A stretch of 64,000 nt of DNA from Octopus sinensis (lineage: Eukaryota), in NCBI RefSeq assembly GCF_006345805.1, contig NC_043001.1, positions 56,730,001-56,794,000 of the forward strand, in the 5' to 3' direction. Shown here in pieces: positions 2,513 to 55,300 of the stretch. Below the pieces are notes generated by a model, which made no database searches, had not been told where the DNA came from, and worked only from the letters and a program-made list of their open reading frames with translations. Within the stretch, counting starts at the first letter, position 1; each line of letters begins with the position of its first letter. A program made the translations under genes and the position numbers.

Positions 2513-2523
2513 ATATACATACA

Positions 2524-2555
<32 letters not shown>

Positions 2556-2726
2556 CACATGCATACATAGTTATATACGTAGGTACGCACGCACACACGC
2601 ACGTACTAACGTATGTATGTATGTATGTATGTATGTATGTATGTATGAATATATATATATATATACTGTGATCTTACCCAAAATGCTGAGAAGCGCCATG
2701 CATTATACATATATATATATATATAT
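2513..2726 (+). repeat. Left arm of a ~210-bp inverted repeat flanking the tandem array
   Basis: 2665-2710 (actgtgatcttacccaaaatgctgagaagcgccatgcattatacat) is the exact reverse complement of 5109-5154. 2559-2615 matches 5220-5276 with about 3 mismatches. Confidence 0.9.
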
Positions 2727-3389
2727 TTGTCCATGTTGTATTTTTCTACATACCTTAACATATATTCCAGGCGCCCCGTACCCCCTTTATCATTAATGTG
2801 AACACATATTCTTAATAATTGGTACGACTCTCTGTTTGTCTCTCTCTCTCTCTCATTTTTACTTTCTCTCTATTCATCTTCTCTTTCCTCTGATCCTTTG
2901 GTCTAGTCTTCCACTACCCTCCTATTTCTTTGTCTCGCTCTGCACTCACAGGTCATTCTTCGACACCCATCCCTTCTCCTCTCTGATTCCTTCTTTCTCT
3001 CTCTTCTCTCTCTTTGTTGCGTTTTGTCCCCCTTTTCTCTCTCTCTCTTTCTTTTCTTTTCCCTCTTCTCTGTCACGTGACTGTTGGCCGAAATCTGCCT
3101 TTCAGCTCCTGACCCTCGTCGTGTTAACATCGTTGTTCTTCGTCCGCCGCTATAAAAGCTTTTTCCAATGCGCCAGAGAAAAAAATTGTTTGCTTGTTAT
3201 CAGTCGTAAGACACTTGTTGTTTTCACCGTTAATGCTTCTGTATTTCATGTTTCTGTATTCCATTATTGTTTTTTGTTTTTTTTATATCTGTCCCTTTTG
3301 CTGTCCTGGTGTTCGTATGCATTCGATCCTTCTTCCAGGAAATCTACGCTTCCAGCTTAGTTTTTCTTGGAGGGGGCCGTGCCGTGATC

Positions 3390-3452
3390 TAGTAATCTCA
3401 AGATTAATCAGCCGAAATTACTACGATGATCCGGTTCTTGACTGAAGACTGA
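3390..3452 (+). ncRNA. Candidate non-circularly permuted hammerhead ribozyme, copy 1
   Basis: TAGTAAT-C-TCAAGA..TCAG-cc-GAA-ATTACTA..TCTTGA-CTGAAGA-CTGA gives stem III of 7 bp, stem I of 6 bp, stem II of 4 bp and an AUC triplet (cut after 3397). Confidence 0.65.
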
Positions 3453-4165
3453 GGGGTTCGAATGTCCTGTCCATGTTTATTGTATCGTCTTCTATGAGTT
3501 ATACGTTCTTGTCCATGTTGTATTTTTCTACATACCTTAACATATATTCCAGGCGCCCCGTACCCCCTTATCATTAATGTGAACACATATTCTTAATAAT
3601 TGGTACGACTCTCTGTTTGTCTCTCTCTCTCTCATTTTTACTTTCTCTCTATTCATCTTCTCTTTCCTCTGATCCTTTGGTCTAGTCTTCCACTACCACC
3701 TCCTATTTCTTTGTCTCGCTCTGCACTCACAGGTCATTCTTCGACACCCATCCCTTCTCCTCTCTGATTCCTTCTTTCTCTCTCTTCTCTCTCTTTGTTG
3801 CGTTTTGTCCCCCTTTTCTCTCTCTCTCTTCTTTTCTTTTCCCTCTTCTCTGTCACGTGACTGTTGGCCGAAATCTGCCTTTCAGCTCCTGACCTCGTCG
3901 TGTTAACATCGTTGTTCTTCGTCCGCCGCTATAAAGGCTTTTTCCAATGCGCCAGAGAAAAAATTTGTTTGCTTGTTATCAGTCGCAAGACACTTGTTGT
4001 TTTCACCGTTAATGCTTCTGTATTTCATGTTTCTGTATTCCATTATTGTTTTTTGTTTTTTTTATATCTGTCCCTTTTGCTGTCCTGGTGTTCGTATGCA
4101 TTCGATCCTTCTTCCAGGAAATCTACGCTTCCAGCTTAGTTTTTCTTGGAGGGCTGGCCGTGATC

Positions 4166-4228
4166 TAGTAATCTCAAGATTAATCAGCCGAAATTACTAC
4201 GATGATCCGGTTCTTGACTGAAGACTGA
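4166..4228 (+). ncRNA. Candidate non-circularly permuted hammerhead ribozyme, copy 2
   Basis: Identical to copy 1; predicted cut after 4173. Confidence 0.65.
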
Positions 4229-4934
4229 GGGGTTCGAATGTCCTGTCCATGTTTATTGTATCGTCTTCTATGAGTTATACGTTTTGTCCATGTTGTATTT
4301 TTCTACATACCTTAACATATATTCCAGGCGCCCCGTACCCCCTTTATCATTAATGTGAACACATATTCTTAATAATTGGTACGACTCTGTTTGTCTCTCT
4401 CTCCTTCATTTTTACTTTCTCTCTATTCATCTTCTCTTTCTCTGATCCTTTGGTCTAGTCTTCCACTACCCTCCTATTTCTTTGTCTCGCTCTGCACTCA
4501 CAGGTCATTCTTCGACACCCATCCCTTCTCCTCTCTGATTCCTTCTTTCTCTCTTTCTCTCTCTTTGTTGCGTTTTGTCCCCCTTTTCTCTCTCTCTTCT
4601 TTTCTTTTCCCTCTTCTCTGTCACGTGACTGTTGGCCGAAATCTGCCTTTCAGCTCCTGACCCTCGTCGTGTTAACATCGTTGTTCTTCGTCCGCCGCTA
4701 TAAAGGCTTTTTCCAATGCGCCAGAGAAAAAAATTGTTTGTTTGTTATCAGTCGTAAGACACTTGTTGTTTTCACCGTTAATGCTTCTGTATTTCATGTT
4801 TCTGTATTCCATTATTGTTTTTTGTTTTTTTTATATCTGTCCCTTTTGCTGTCCTGGTGTTCGTATGCATTCGATCCTTCCTCCAGGAAATCTACGCTTC
4901 CAGGTTAGTTTTTCTTGGAGGGCTGGCCGTGATC

Positions 4935-4997
4935 TAGTAATCTCAAGATTAATCAGCCGAAATTACTACGATGATCCGGTTCTTGACTGAAGACTGA
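4935..4997 (+). ncRNA. Candidate non-circularly permuted hammerhead ribozyme, copy 3
   Basis: Identical to copy 1; predicted cut after 4942. Confidence 0.65.
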
Positions 4998-5085
4998 GGG
5001 GTTCGAATGTCCTGTCCATGTTTATTGTATCGTCTTCTATGAGTTATACGTTCTTGTCCATGTTGTATTTTTCTACATACCTTAA

Positions 5086-5301
5086 TATATATATATATAT
5101 ATATATATATGTATAATGCATGGCGCTTCTCAGCATTTTGGGTAAGATCACAGTATATATATATATATATTCATACATACATACATACATACATACATAC
5201 ATACATACATACATACATACATACGTATGTACGTGCGTGTGTGCGTGCGTACCTACGTATATAACTATATATGCATGTATGTATGTATGTATGTATGTAT
5301 G
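5086..5301 (-). repeat. Right arm of the inverted repeat flanking the tandem array
   Basis: Reverse complement of ~2513-2726. Confidence 0.9.
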
Positions 5302-5855
5302 TAAGTCAGGTCACTTTCGAGTGCTACTGGTAATATGTAACCCAGTACAACCTGTTGCATCGTCGGGTCGTCGGTGACTAAACCGGCAACCCCACCAAGC
5401 TTGCTTGGTGAGGAGGGTGTTTATTGGACACCCTGCAGGATGAAAAACAAAACCCGCCAAAGGGCAGAGGAACTCTTGAGAGTGAACGGCCATCCAATAA
5501 ATGTCTGTATCATGCGCGGGGATATAGAAATAATCGGACTGAATACCCGATCGCGCGGTTAAACCATTGGGAGTGAAGGACTCCTAGCCTTTGTTAGGAC
5601 ATCCTTCTAGGAGAAGGTAACTCAGTTAACTGGGATAACTCCGATATAAAACTTGCGGCTGAGTGGTTACCGATGATATTGACTTGTTCTTCTTTTCGGA
5701 TTATGGCTGCTGTTGCTTAGTGAGTGGGGTTGACTCAGTGCACAGCCTTTCCTCCCTTTAAAAAAAATCTTCTTGCACAGGCATTGCACGATAACAACAT
5801 TGATTAAGCTTTCTGCAATGGCCATACTCGATAACGAAGGGGTAGCCACCACCAT
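5302..5855 (+). mobile_element. Non-coding element resembling an RTE-type LINE 5' UTR, embedded in (ATGT)n
   Basis: GC-richer block with RTE 5'UTR-like motifs (ggcaacccc, ctaggagaaggtaactc) and (atgt)n on both sides. Confidence 0.45.
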
Positions 5856-21878: not shown

Positions 21879-22496
21879 TACAACCCCAGAAACAAAGAAG
21901 CCTTCACCATCATCACCCATAATTTACCAATACTACATAAGGACCCCAAATTAAAGGAAATTCTAAACATACATAAAATCATTAAAAGCTACAAACAACC
22001 TGAATCACTTAAAACGATTCTCACAAAGGCAAAATTGTTTTCTGAAATTACGGATGCAAATGTAAAAAAATGTGGTAGACCAAACTGCGCAACATGCCCA
22101 AACCTTCTAGAAGGATCACAATTCCTCTTCAAAAAGGGACAAAAATTCAAGATCAAATCTAACTTTACTTGTGCTTCTGAAAACATAATTTATGTCATAA
22201 GATGCTCGGGCTGCCACCAAAACTACGTGGGTTTCACAGGACTATCACTCAGACGTAGATGCACTCTGCATCGACAACAGATTGCATTCCCAGAATACAG
22301 AATGATACCCTTTAGTGAGCATATTGAGAAATGCGCAAAGCAGCTACTACCACAATTTCTAATCTTTCCATTTTATCAATGTGCTATTAGAACACCAACA
22401 CAAATTAGACTAAACAAGGAAACATTCTTCATTGAAAAATATAAGCCCAAACTTAACCATTCTAACATTCTTATACAGAGAAACTCACCCCATTAA
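21879..22496 (+). CDS. 5'-truncated Neptune-like PLE ORF: linker, Cys-rich motif and GIY-YIG endonuclease
   Basis: Open frame YNPRNKEAF...SYKQPESL...CGRPNCATC...FTCASENIIYVIRCSGCHQNYVGFTG.SLRRRCTLH...EHIEKC...KETFFIEKYKPKLN*. It starts directly at a (TA)n tract. Confidence 0.92.
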   Translation, partial: YNPRNKEAFTIITHNLPILHKDPKLKEILNIHKIIKSYKQPESLKTILTKAKLFSEITDANVKKCGRPNCATCPNLLEGSQFLFKKGQKFKIKSNFTCASENIIYVIRCSGCHQNYVGFTGLSLRRRCTLHRQQIAFPEYRMIPFSEHIEKCAKQLLPQFLIFPFYQCAIRTPTQIRLNKETFFIEKYKPKLNHSNILIQRNSPH

Positions 22497-22617
22497 ATAA
22501 AAGGGAAAGGAAATATAAAGCGATTGTCTCCCTTATACCGGAAGAAATCGCTAATTACCTCCCCCTACCTGGAACTCTCCTTTGCACTTCATAACGAAGA
22601 AATAACAAGATGTTTTG

Positions 22618-22654
22618 AGAAATTTGAAAAGTTAACACGAAACCGGTAATTTCT
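22618..22654 (+). ncRNA. Minimal type I hammerhead ribozyme with U3-A8 covariation in the PLE pLTR
   Basis: AGAAAT-TTGAAAA-GT-taac-AC-GAAA-CCGG-T-A-ATTTCT: 6-bp stem I, palindromic stem III (ACCGGT), GUA triplet. Confidence 0.75.
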
Positions 22655-22818
22655 TCAAAGACTATGTCACTGTATGAAAAAAAATTTATAACATTCTCCG
22701 GACATAATGACTCAAATATATATTTTAACCTTTTAAAACAACCCTTCTGTAGTTTTTCACTTTTTACTATTTTCTATATATTCAACCACGTGCTTTCACA
22801 CACCAACTTTCTCAACCT

Positions 22819-28689: not shown

Positions 28690-30400
28690 TTTTAATATTC
28701 GTATTTTCCAGTGGTTGTCTCTGTCTATTATTTAAACTTCACTCCGCAGAGGGAGGTGGTCTCTGTTTTCCCCATACATGAGCGGCTATACCCGATTTTG
28801 CAGCATCCTCTCGCTTCACAGCTTTACGATGTTCCTCTACCCTTATTTTAAGGAGGAGGTATGTTTCGCTTTTGTATAACCTACTGCAAATGCATGGGTT
28901 GGAGTACACGCAGCATTTGGTCATATTTTCTTCTATGGGTGGATTTACTCAGAGGAGGTATTTGCAAAGTGTCGTATTACTTCCGAATATTGTCCTAGAG
29001 GCCTTTGACATGGGTAGACAGACTGCGGTCAGTTTATGGGTTTTATCCCGTTTCGTATTCCTAATTGGAGTAGATAGTATGTTTTCTGGATAGTTGTTGC
29101 ATAATAGGTTGTTTCTTAGCCTGATAATTTCTTCCTAGTGTGTGACAGGATCGCTACTTATAGTCTTTGCTCGATGTTTTAGGCACTGAGCAATCCTTGT
29201 ATGGATGGTGGGAATTGAAGTTGAGGTATTGTCCAGTGAAGGTTGGCTTACGATATACGAATGTCCTGAACCCATACTCAGTGCGTGTTATTAATACATC
29301 CAGGAATGCCAGTGTTGGGTCTGTTGTCAGTACTTCATTGGCATGAAGTAATCTTTGTTCTTGATTAAGATCTGTGACAACTTCCTCTCTGTTTTCAGAG
29401 TTGGATCTTTTTTTATTTTGCTGTAGCTTTCTTCAATTATGAGACTTGCTAATTTTACCGAGTATTCAGACTTGTTCATTCGCCGGAAATATGGTGGAAC
29501 TGTCACTCTGTAATGTTTTGATAGCGAATTTTTCTCCCTAGAGATGTTTGGTTTGGGAAGTTTCCTTTTCTTTAGTACCTTCTCAACAGGGGCTAGGCTA
29601 TTATGTCCAAGTATAAGGCGGCGAGCTGGCAGAAACGTTAGCACACCGGGCGAAATGCGTAGCCGTATTTCGTCTGCCGTTACTTTCTGAGTTCAAATTC
29701 TGCAGAGGTCGACATTGCCTTTCATCCTTTCGGGGTCGATAAATTAAGTACCAGTTACGCACTGGGGTCGATGTAATCGACTTAATCCGTTTGACTGTCT
29801 TTGTTTGTCCCCTCAGTGTTTAGCCCCTTGTGGGTAGTAAAAAAATATACATTATGTCCAAGTATGGAATGCGCTTGATGGTTGTCGCAAAGTTGAAACC
29901 TTTGTTTAGTACTGCTTCTTCAGAGTTGTCCAGATGTCGCCTACTTACGTTAATTACTGCTTTCACAGGTAGGTGATGGACTTTGGTCTTCATTCTCTGA
30001 ATATTGAGCTTCATAAGCTTCTTTACCTGGCGTGTCTTCACCTTCTCAAATTCTTTCTTGCACGACTTTTCTAGATCTTGTTGGATTCTCTCTCTACCAT
30101 CCTCTCTGGTTATTCTCCCAAATAATGAAGACAATCTGTCTCTGATTTCGTTATTTAGTTGATGTTTTTCCAATGGTTATAATGGATCCTCTCATGGGCG
30201 AGGGCGTGCCCTGTTTTTTCCGCTACTCTCCGAGCATTATTTGAATTCACTGATGTCATTACAGTCAGTCCAGGTGACATTAGCTTTGAGTCTCTACATC
30301 TACACAGAAACGTTAGATGGCTTGAAAGACCATCTAGTTTCTAATAGAGTTTCTCAGTATGTCTCCATTGAAGTCTAATGTTGACTCCGTACCGATTAGT
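28690..30400 (-). mobile_element. Penelope/Poseidon-type PLE, internally deleted and interrupted by a SINE
   Basis: N-terminal VINVSRRHLDNSEEAVLNKGFNFA..IPYLDI; KKDPTLK; RT end LAFLDVLITR..FRTFVYRKPTFTGQYLNFNSHHP; GIY-YIG CVYSNPCICSRLY..ET..L..RVEEH..SGIAAHVW. The RT core is missing. Confidence 0.88.
29615..29850 (+). mobile_element. Young full-length family A SINE with a perfect 15-bp TSD
   Basis: attatgtccaagtat occurs at 29600-29614 and 29851-29865. Confidence 0.95.
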
Positions 30401-36821: not shown

Positions 36822-37480
<659 letters not shown>

Positions 37481-55140: not shown

Positions 55141-55143
55141 CTA

Positions 55144-55300
55144 TCTACGACTATAGCACGTTGAATGCACTGGTTCTTGACCGGTCGCCGAAGTTAAACA
55201 ACATCGAGACTAGTAAGTATTTAGATGGGTGACCGTTAGGGGAACTGAGGGGTCTTGTGAGTAGATTTGGTAGACGGAAATGAAAGAAGCCTGTCGTATA

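What the first reader, a model, noticed from the sequence alone, without database searches (positions are those of the whole stretch)
2727..5085. Three units plus a 32-bp terminal repeat: signature of rolling-circle reverse transcription or pLTR multimerisation
Seen: three head-to-tail units (782, 775 and 770 bp) end with a 32-bp repeat of the start, sit in (TA)n and lack coding capacity. The units differ by small indels and substitutions while the HHR motif is invariant. Each unit also carries a GTCACGTGAC palindrome (3072-3081) and a TATAAA (3151). Established: non-LTR retrozymes are tandem HHR-bearing repeats copied from circular RNAs, and PLE pLTRs also form tandem copies. Inference: this is a large non-autonomous ribozyme retroelement, probably mobilised by the microsatellite-associated PLEs common in this window.
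Basis: partly seen in the sequence, partly recalled or inferred. Interest (0 to 1): 0.75.

Follow-up and report, generated by a model that had tools for sequence, protein, structure and literature searches.

The report
Tandem non-coding retroelement in TA microsatellites
This is a three-unit copy of a ~775-bp non-coding repeat found about a thousand times in this genome, always ending at the same base inside a (TA)n microsatellite and starting at variable points, so it was likely copied in from RNA, probably by the enzymes of Penelope-like elements; the textbook hammerhead ribozyme claimed for it is not there.

Summary
The array is real: a 32-nt partial unit (2727-2758) plus units of 782, 775 and 770 bp (to 5085), inside (TA)n and non-coding. 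It belongs to a dispersed family. The last 24 nt of the unit followed by TATATA occur 896 times in the 2.72-Gb genome; a conserved 35-nt core shared with a sister family occurs 2481 times. In an unbiased sample of 95 insertions every copy ends at ...CCTTAA|(TA)n, and 5' ends are variable. About 30% run on into a second or third unit, and only 1-2 start at a unit boundary. The internal junction CCTTAA-CATATAT-TCC is identical in 46 of 47 cases. This is the signature of target-primed reverse transcription of a template that is continuous across the unit junction (circular or concatemeric). It matches the partial tandems, 5' truncation, inverted copies and (TA)n bias of Penelope-like elements. 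Intact (TA)n-inserting RT+GIY-YIG PLEs are abundant here, but none shares sequence with the unit. No canonical hammerhead is present, although a positive control elsewhere in the genome was detected. Hammerhead-like parts do occur in a non-canonical, pseudoknotted order, and the predicted cut site coincides with the 5' limit of an abundant 124-146-nt insertion class. This is untested. TATAAA is not conserved; the CACGTG box is.

The parts
2516..2726 (.). Left arm of a 211-nt inverted repeat of host flank; it includes the upstream (TA)n target next to the array
   Evidence: I1, 85% ungapped; 90.5% over 211 nt. Its unique 30-mer occurs only twice in the genome, as these two arms.
2727..2758 (+). 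5'-truncated first unit: the last 32 nt of a unit (TTGTCCATG...CCTTAA)
   Evidence: first qstart 743; nhmmer 2727-2758 = model positions 753-784.
2759..3540 (+). Full unit 1 (782 bp), starting CATATATTCCAGG and ending CCTTAA
3541..4315 (+). Full unit 2 (775 bp); used as the reference unit (q1-q775)
4316..5085 (+). Full unit 3 (770 bp); ends at the family's fixed 3' end ...CTACATACCTTAA
   Evidence: The 3' end is shared by 896 exact copies.
3541..3547 (+). TA-like junction spacer CATATAT (also at 2759-2765 and 4316-4322); inferred annealing site for the nicked (TA)n target
   Evidence: The junction CCTTAA-CATATAT-TCCAGG is identical in 46 of 47 internal junctions. The sister family has GTTTACC-TATATA-ATCGG. 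The priming role is inferred.
5086..5110 (.). Downstream (TA)n target
5093..5303 (.). Right arm of the inverted host-flank repeat
3852..3861 (.). GTCACGTGAC palindrome with CACGTG E-box (also 3072-3081 and 4620-4629); possible promoter element
   Evidence: TCACGTGAC is kept between families A and B within a poorly conserved stretch. Function is inferred.
4160..4243 (+). Most conserved 3' module (also 3384-3467 and 4929-5012). It holds the stem UAGUAAU/AUUACUA, the loop CUCAAGAUUAAUCAGCCGAA, CUGAAGA and GGGGUUCGAAUGUCC
   Evidence: A-versus-B alignment gives 70/80 and 62/80 identities here. Consensus fold with 4 compensated pairs. The 35-nt core occurs 2481 times.
4173..4174 (+). Predicted hammerhead-like cleavage site AAUC|UCAAG (also 3397|3398 and 4942|4943). 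It equals the 5' limit of the 124-146-nt insertion class
   Evidence: order a-c-b; helix I 6 bp, helix III 7 bp; leftmost starts q633-649. Cleavage is untested.

Best explanation
The array is one insertion of a dispersed, non-coding, non-autonomous retroelement family that was likely copied into a (TA)n microsatellite by target-primed reverse transcription, probably by the RT/GIY-YIG protein of the (TA)n-specific Penelope-like elements of this genome. Shown: every copy ends at ...CCTTAA followed by (TA)n; 5' ends are variable and mostly abut (TA)n; about 30% of copies continue through an invariant junction (CCTTAA-CATATAT-TCC) into a second or third unit; starts do not pile up at the unit boundary. 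Inferred: the endonuclease nicks (TA)n, and the freed TA-repeat 3' end anneals to the TA-like spacer that sits at every unit junction. With the primer overlapping the single C as a mismatch, this gives exactly the observed CCTTAA+TATATA; in the sister family the spacer is a perfect TATATA. The RT then copies a template that has no end at the unit boundary, which I think is most likely a unit-length circular RNA read round and round, or otherwise a concatemeric transcript. The 5' end is joined at TA-containing microhomology sites. The 32-nt 'terminal repeat' is simply a 5'-truncated fourth unit. The conserved 3' module is predicted to be the RNA part recognised by the RT.
For: Family and fixed 3' end: the unit search gave 1364 first-look candidates and 127 matches from the 40 scored, with every array ending at the same position. 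There are 896 exact 30-mer 3' ends and 0 in the reversed control. Unbiased sample: the first 100 places in genome order, 95 kept. By raw length 63, 28 and 4 fall in the first, second and third turn; three of the 28 are single units lengthened by insertions, so about 66/25/4. Only L086 and L176 start at q1-2. Junction identical in 46 of 47. Units within an array are closer to each other (1.5%, 22 pairs) than units of different arrays (2.1%, 539 pairs). There is no position-specific clustering, and L117, L119, L125 and L128 have array-private shared variants, so units were alike at birth. No long master arrays: among the 100 listed core hits I counted by eye runs of at most 3. PLE hallmarks per Craig 2021 (PMC8557442, passages) and Goubert 2022 (PMC8969392, passages) are 5' truncation, partial tandems, inverted 5'-truncated copies and (TA)n bias. 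Inverted head-to-head copies are seen at L025 and L092/L093. PLE supply: at least 5029 GIY-YIG candidates and open frames of 775-883 aa with RVT_1 plus a C-terminal GIY-YIG. Their 3' ends abut (TA)n. The 3' module is conserved between families, with compensatory pairs.
Against: No sequence similarity was found between the unit (or its 3' module) and the 35 PLE loci fetched via GIY-YIG (blastn on 30 of them; nhmmer on all 35 plus 20 loci of the 'head' family), so the partner is unidentified. These 35 are a small part of at least 5029 candidates. (TA)n targeting and 5' truncation would also fit an unknown (TA)n-specific LINE. Priming at the spacer requires a tolerated A:C mismatch two bases from the primer end in family A. 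A concatemeric read-through transcript cannot be excluded for any single copy. Target-site duplications cannot be read in (TA)n.
Confidence: 0.6

Rival explanations
1. It is a true retrozyme-like element. Each unit would carry a self-cleaving hammerhead-like motif with rearranged strand order that cuts at AAUC|UCAAG (window 3397, 4173, 4942). Linear 775-nt monomers would be ligated into circles. Circles would give multi-unit arrays by rolling-circle reverse transcription, and linear monomers would give run-off copies of about 142 nt.
For: All hammerhead parts are present and adjacent. These are the stem UAGUAAU/AUUACUA closing on A15.1-U16.1 with GAA beside it, C at position 17, the 6-bp helix I UCAAGA/UCUUGA directly flanking the site, and CUGAAGA. 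Only 9 of 3000 dinucleotide shuffles gave any such hit and 2 gave one as strong. The same arrangement is in family B. Between families the only change within CUGANGA is at N7 (A/U), and helix III changes by a compensated pair. A class of 23 insertions of 124-146 nt has leftmost starts at q633-649, bounded by the predicted cut at q633|634. The cluster appears only in the first turn, 21 of 63 against 0 of 32, Fisher p 5e-5, as expected if later turns are read from circles.
Against: The strand order is a-c-b, which cannot form a nested three-way junction; helices I and II would cross helix III as pseudoknots. Helix II is only CUGA/UCAG, with two unpaired C next to G12. No Rfam ribozyme family matches at E<=10, while a canonical one is found in the control. 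The motif scan was designed after seeing the sequence. Only 2 of 23 short copies reach q633-634. The cluster sits on a TTAAT microhomology site. Conservation extends beyond the hammerhead-like parts.
Confidence: 0.17
2. The multi-unit copies come from linear concatemeric transcripts read through existing genomic arrays into the flanking (TA)n. They are primed by the (UA)n tail or at an internal spacer, and no circle is involved.
For: This gives the same fixed 3' end, the same invariant junction and variable 5' truncation. A conserved CACGTG box could drive Pol II transcription. PLE pseudo-LTRs are usually explained by tandem templates.
Against: Daughters can never have more units than their source. 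Only 4 of 95 sampled insertions have two or more full units, and no run above 3 cores was seen in 100 listed hits. Three-unit copies like this one would therefore die out without a step that adds units (inference). No preferred transcription-start phase is visible in the second and third turns.
Confidence: 0.2
3. It is a tRNA-Phe-derived SINE-like module (the last ~135 nt), transcribed by Pol III and fused to a longer body; the short class would be full-length Pol III transcripts.
For: GCCGAAAT, then ACTGAAGA after exactly 22 nt, then GGTTCGA, as in the genome's own tRNA-Phe(GAA) genes (73 pattern matches; ARAGORN on L235). Global alignment z = 4.3. The short class starts 0-14 nt upstream of the tRNA-like +1.
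Against: The tRNA genes were retrieved with those same motifs. An unbiased local alignment is not significant: 507 of 1000 shuffles reach the score. ARAGORN and Rfam see no tRNA. The A-box region is unrelated. The base at the G53 position varies freely (G/T/C/A) between active families. A T5 run precedes the 3' end. Short copies share the variants of the long ones.
Confidence: 0.08
4. It is a local satellite expansion or an assembly artefact with no retrotransposition.
For: The inverted duplicated flanks at this locus are unusual.
Against: Hundreds of dispersed copies on many contigs have the same 3' end and different flanks. The three units differ by 1.7-2.2% with private changes. Multi-unit arrays recur at independent loci.
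Confidence: 0.03

Closest known systems
Metazoan non-LTR retrozymes (Cervera and de la Pena 2020, PMC7229834, passages read; Li et al. 2026 preprint 10.64898/2026.07.22.740005, abstract and introduction)
   Same: Non-coding head-to-tail units dispersed in the genome. They co-occur with PLEs, are thought to be PLE-dependent, and are proposed to be copied from circular RNA.
   Different: Retrozymes are defined by a type I hammerhead in every unit, and their units are about 150-450 bp. Here units are ~775 bp and no canonical hammerhead is found. Arrays are short (1-4 units), with a strictly fixed 3' end in (TA)n.
Penelope-like element insertions with pseudo-LTRs, especially the (TA)n-targeting clades Naiad, Neptune and Hydra (Craig et al. 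2021, PMC8557442, passages; Goubert et al. 2022, PMC8969392, passages)
   Same: 5' truncation, partial tandem copies, occasional inverted 5'-truncated copies, (TA)n insertion bias and a short terminal extra piece. Naiads show that such tandems form without a hammerhead.
   Different: No RT/EN ORF and no detected sequence shared with the PLEs sampled here. The unit is a stand-alone 775-bp non-coding sequence with its own conserved 3' module.
SINEs (tRNA-derived, LINE-dependent)
   Same: Short non-coding, RT-dependent, 5'-truncated copies. There is a weak tRNA-Phe-like motif pattern in the 3' module.
   Different: No poly(A) or LINE-type tail. Units are tandem. The tRNA likeness is not significant. 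The module sits at the 3' end rather than the 5' end.
Hammerhead ribozyme types I-III (Rfam RF00163, RF00008, RF02276)
   Same: CUGANGA, GAA, a UH site, and complementarity for helices I and III adjacent to the core.
   Different: Strand order a-c-b instead of the cyclic b-c-a. Helix II is short with a CC bulge. No covariance-model match.

Membership tests
Non-LTR retrozyme | Type I hammerhead ribozyme in each tandem unit | tested here: not met
   Rfam at E<=10: none. The motif CTGANGA-N6-36-GAAA is absent from the array. The positive control was detected.
Non-LTR retrozyme | Non-coding head-to-tail tandem units dispersed in the genome | tested here: met
Non-LTR retrozyme | Unit about 150-450 bp (PMC7229834) | tested here: not met
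   Units are 770-782 bp.
Non-LTR retrozyme | Expressed as self-cleaved circular RNA | not testable with these tools
PLE-type (non-autonomous) insertion | Fixed 3' end with variable 5' truncation | tested here: met
PLE-type (non-autonomous) insertion | Partial tandem (pseudo-LTR-like) arrangement made at insertion | tested here: met
   About 29 of 95 insertions exceed one unit, and the junction is invariant.
PLE-type (non-autonomous) insertion | Inverted 5'-truncated copies adjoining some insertions | tested here: met
   L025 and L092/L093.
PLE-type (non-autonomous) insertion | Microsatellite (TA)n target shared with autonomous PLEs of the same genome | tested here: met
PLE-type (non-autonomous) insertion | Sequence (3' end or pLTR) shared with an autonomous PLE | tested here: not met
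   No similarity to the 35 PLE loci sampled. Only a small part of at least 5029 candidates was sampled.
PLE-type (non-autonomous) insertion | 30-40-bp 'tail' at one end | tested here: inconclusive
   The 32-nt piece at 2727-2758 fits in size, but 5' partial units of all lengths occur.
Hammerhead ribozyme | Core CUGANGA, GAA and a UH site with adjacent helices I and III | tested here: met
Hammerhead ribozyme | Cyclic strand order allowing a nested three-way junction, with helix II directly adjoining A9 and G12 | tested here: not met
   The order is a-c-b. Helix II is 4 bp with two unpaired C (reading).
tRNA-derived SINE | Recognisable tRNA-related region with A and B boxes | tested here: not met
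   ARAGORN: none. Rfam: none. Local alignment not significant. The G53 position varies.

The most novel reading that the evidence does not exclude
Each unit encodes a hammerhead whose three strands are wired in the 'wrong' cyclic order (a-c-b): a pseudoknotted connectivity not among types I-III. It cuts at AAUC|UCAAG, releasing 775-nt RNAs that are circularised and then read round and round by a PLE reverse transcriptase primed from the TA-spacer. That would be a large retrozyme with a new ribozyme topology.
Probability: 0.15. Interest if true: 0.85.

Novelty: new variant of a known kind. Interest (0 to 1): 0.6.

Why it matters
PLE retrotransposition is poorly understood, in particular how partial tandems arise and why microsatellites are targeted. 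This family offers hundreds of young, short, non-coding insertions in which those steps can be read directly. It shows a fixed start at a TA-like spacer matching the target, read-through of the unit junction without a stop, and a roughly constant loss per turn. It also shows that retrozyme-like tandem elements can thrive without a canonical hammerhead. If the rearranged hammerhead-like motif cleaves, it would add a new connectivity to the best-studied small ribozyme.

Tried and rejected
Rfam on the whole window at gathering thresholds found only U6 and 5S. Rfam on five PLE loci at gathering thresholds found nothing; this was later shown to be a sensitivity limit for minimal hammerheads.

The search for an autonomous partner failed. 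There was no unit-to-PLE DNA similarity. No PLE ORF lay next to arrays in 146 and 60 loci, apart from unrelated fragments in L142 and L246.

The distinct 5' 'head' in L074 turned out to be another (TA)n-targeting repeat family, with at least 1316 candidates, not the element's own 5' end.

The idea that the flanking inverted repeat is a repeated MITE was rejected: its 30-mer occurs only twice in the genome. The idea that it is a general feature of insertions was also rejected: 3 of 28 other loci showed any flank-to-flank match, two of them being one inverted pair.

The short 124-146-nt copies as a separate lineage were rejected: they carry the same polymorphisms as the long copies.

tRNA-Phe origin is suggestive only. 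TATAAA as a promoter is not conserved.

Earlier-findings look-ups returned nothing.
Full report
**The observation**

The window holds a head-to-tail array from 2727 to 5085. Unit ends (…CATACCTTAA) lie at 2758, 3540, 4315 and 5085, giving full units of 782, 775 and 770 bp. These are preceded by the last 32 nt of a unit. (TA)n abuts both ends. Stop-to-stop frames are short, differ between units, and the longest has no Pfam match. The units differ by 1.7-2.2% with mostly private changes, so this is not a duplicated assembly of one unit.

Its non-microsatellite 30-mer occurs only twice in the 2.72-Gb genome, namely in these two arms.

**The hammerhead claim**

No hammerhead family of Rfam matches at E<=10, either in 2600-5200 or in a focused 211-nt search of the conserved 3' module. 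A search of the same size on L064:7950-8160 does find a canonical minimal type I hammerhead (RF00163, 26.6 bits, E 1e-4). I had located that site with a motif scan, so the method can see PLE-type hammerheads in this genome. The pattern CTGANGA-N(6-36)-GAAA has six matches in the window, about what chance gives, and none in the array. The canonical ribozyme that defines retrozymes is therefore absent.

**A dispersed family with a fixed 3' end**

- A search of the window's own genome with one unit gave 1364 first-look candidates. Forty were scored, giving 127 matches, and every array ended at the same position while first units began anywhere.
- The last 24 nt of the unit plus TATATA occur 896 times exactly (427 + 469), with none for the reversed control.
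- I took the first 100 places in genome order, a sample that is blind to array length, and measured how far each insertion extends upstream.
- I dropped L184 and L185 (chains ran across (TA)n into neighbouring copies) and L153, L165 and L183 (same flanks as L152, L164 and L182). I replaced the cut L091 by its full value from L127. That left 95 insertions.
- By raw length, 63 are shorter than one unit, 28 lie in the second turn and 4 in the third. Three of the 28 (L074, L086, L186) are single units lengthened by internal insertions, so the split is about 66/25/4.
- Lengths run from 41 to 1960 nt. Only L086 and L176 begin at q1-2, and L176 in fact continues 10 nt into the preceding unit.
- The internal junction CCTTAA-CATATAT-TCCAGG is identical in 46 of 47 junctions found in all fetched loci.

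So the 3' end is fixed, the 5' end is variable, and reverse transcription reads through the unit junction as if it were ordinary template.

**Were units alike at birth?**

In 34 full units from 17 arrays, units of one array differ by 1.5% on average (22 pairs), against 2.1% between arrays (539 pairs). Units do not cluster by position in the array (2.15% same position, 2.04% different). Several arrays (L117, L119, L125, L128) carry variants shared by all their units and seen nowhere else in the sample. This fits repeated copying of one template sequence, not copying of a heterogeneous master array.

Long masters are not evident. In the 100 listed hits of the conserved core I counted by eye 68 singletons, 13 doublets and 2 triplets, and no longer run.

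**A sister family and the conserved parts**

- A diverged copy found by chance in L065 led to family B. It has at least 761 candidates and the same ~776-bp tandem units. Its fixed 3' end is …GTTTACC|(TA)n, and its internal junction is GTTTACC-TATATA-ATCGG.
- The 35-nt core GGTTCTTGACTGANGACTGAGGGNTTCGAATGTCC occurs 2481 times, with none in the control.
- Families A and B align over the whole unit. The 3' module is by far the best conserved (70/80 and 62/80 identities).
- TCACGTGAC is kept within a poorly conserved stretch, while TATAAA is absent from B. In a second A subfamily that site reads GCTATAGGCATCGCCGATAAGG.
- A consensus fold of the last ~210 nt has 45 pairs, 4 of them with changes on both sides, against 0-1 in slid controls. 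This rests on essentially one A/B split and on a structure derived from the same sequences, so it is suggestive only.

**The TA-like spacer (inference)**

Both families carry a TA-like spacer exactly at the unit junction, and the 3' boundary of every insertion lies at the start of that spacer. A nicked (TA)n target end can anneal there. In B the match is perfect. In A the primer must overlap one C as a mismatch, which would yield the observed CCTTAA+TATATA rather than CCTTAAC…. This explains a fixed 3' end without requiring the RNA to end there.

**Who moves it?**

- The genome holds at least 5029 GIY-YIG candidates, of which 150 were scored and 149 matched.
- Their copies sit in (TA)n with fixed 3' ends, some with a ~38-nt extra tail.
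- The window itself has a 5'-truncated PLE at 21881-22818 in (TA)n and a small fragment at 29202-29312.
- Published descriptions list 5' truncation, partial tandems forming pseudo-LTRs, inverted 5'-truncated copies, 30-40-bp tails and (TA)n bias for Naiad, Neptune and Hydra PLEs. They also note that Naiads lack hammerheads (PMC8557442, passages; PMC8969392, passages).
- Inverted head-to-head copies of the present family occur at L025 and L092/L093.
- Against a PLE link, neither blastn nor nhmmer finds similarity between the unit and the 35 PLE loci in hand. No array in 146 + 60 fetched loci (many overlapping) adjoins a PLE ORF.

PLE mobilisation is therefore inferred from shared target and shared insertion anatomy, not from shared sequence.

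**Circle or concatemer?**

Several findings argue against a linear monomer with template jumps and against simple read-through of genomic arrays: the missing pile-up at the boundary, the invariant junction, the likeness of units within arrays and the scarcity of long sources. Under read-through, daughters could only lose units (inference).

A further clue is a class of 23 insertions of 124-146 nt whose leftmost possible starts lie at q633-649. By BLAST start, 21 of 63 first-turn insertions fall at q636-650, against 0 of 32 in later turns (Fisher p 5e-5). These short copies carry the same polymorphisms as the long ones, so they are not a separate lineage. An RNA 5' end at about q634 in part of the templates, and no end there in the templates that give multi-turn copies, would explain this. 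Linear versus circular forms of one RNA fit, but so does a start site combined with mostly short source loci.

**The hammerhead-like arrangement**

Around that position the unit has, in this order:
- UAGUAAU;
- C, then UCAAGA, UUAA, UCAG, CC, GAA;
- AUUACUA;
- 12 nt;
- UCUUGA;
- CUGAAGA;
- CUGA.

Read as a hammerhead, this gives helix III (7 bp, closing on A15.1-U16.1), C17, helix I (6 bp), the core heptamer and GAA. However, the strand order is a-c-b, so helices I and II would have to form as pseudoknots with the loop of helix III. Helix II is only 4 bp, with two unpaired C next to G12.

An order-blind scan finds this single hit in the unit. It finds any hit in 9 of 3000 dinucleotide shuffles and one as strong in 2 of 3000. 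Family B has the same arrangement. Between families the heptamer varies only at N7, and helix III changes by a compensated pair. The predicted cut, q633|634, is the upper limit of the short class.

The scan was designed after seeing the sequence, the topology is unprecedented to my knowledge (recalled, not searched), and no cleavage data exist. I rate it at about 15%.

**Other readings**

The same module shows GCCGAAAT, ACTGAAGA 22 nt later and GGTTCGA, as in the genome's tRNA-Phe(GAA) genes. Those genes were fetched with these very motifs. An unbiased local alignment is not significant (507 of 1000 shuffles), and ARAGORN and Rfam see no tRNA. I keep this as a weak lead.

The inverted host flanks are peculiar to this locus and remain unexplained. 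Candidates are a pre-existing palindrome centred on (TA)n, or fold-back repair at the endonuclease break.

**Verdict**

- The thing is a new, large, hammerhead-less variant of the PLE-type or retrozyme-like tandem non-autonomous retroelements.
- It targets (TA)n, and its genome-wide structure favours a template that is continuous across the unit junction.
- Expression, circularity, cleavage and the identity of the reverse transcriptase are untested.

Noticed in passing
window 2516-2726 and 5093-5303: The host DNA on the two sides of the array is an inverted duplicate (211 nt, 90.5%). Its unique part occurs nowhere else in the genome. Such flanks are not a general feature of the family (any flank-to-flank hit in 3 of 28 other loci). 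Origin unexplained: a pre-existing palindrome around (TA)n, or fold-back repair at insertion.
   Followed up: partly
window 21881-22818 (+) and 29202-29312 (-): A 5'-truncated Penelope-like element (C-terminal linker plus GIY-YIG, ~50% aa identity to the 781-aa family) sits inside (TA)n with 3' end ...CTTTCTCAACC|(TA)n. A second small PLE fragment lies at 29202-29312.
   Followed up: partly
window 37157-37254 (-) and 55143-55263 (+): A U6 snRNA match (70 bits) and a 5S rRNA match (49.5 bits), both above Rfam gathering scores.
   Followed up: no
L074:472-712 and loci L097-L115: A second abundant (TA)n-targeting repeat family (at least 1316 candidates) has the fixed 3' end ...GTGTTTTCTTGTTTGGATTAACT(T)|(TA)n, 5' truncation and some tandem copies (L102). 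L074 is a chimera of this family and the 775-bp unit.
   Followed up: partly
L064:8015-8059 (+); L063:7620-7705 (+): Canonical minimal type I hammerheads (CUGAUGA ... GAAAC-UCGA-GUC) lie next to PLE copies. They score below Rfam's gathering score, so they were missed in the gathering search.
   Followed up: partly
G000:C15:43558424-43582221: A tandem cluster of about 60 tRNA-Phe(GAA) genes at ~200-bp spacing.
   Followed up: no
L184-L186 (G000:C2:44229405-44231166): Three copies of an ~800-bp insertion, each starting at q47 and each with its own (TA)n, repeated at ~865-bp spacing. This looks like a DNA-level tandem duplication of element plus microsatellite.
   Followed up: no
L035, L053, L056-L059: Some copies of the 781-aa PLE family carry a ~38-nt extra piece (TATATACCCACTCGTATACGAGCTAATCTTATTATAAA) after the usual 3' end ...TTTTTTACAAA. 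This matches the 30-40-bp 'tail' described for PLEs.
   Followed up: no
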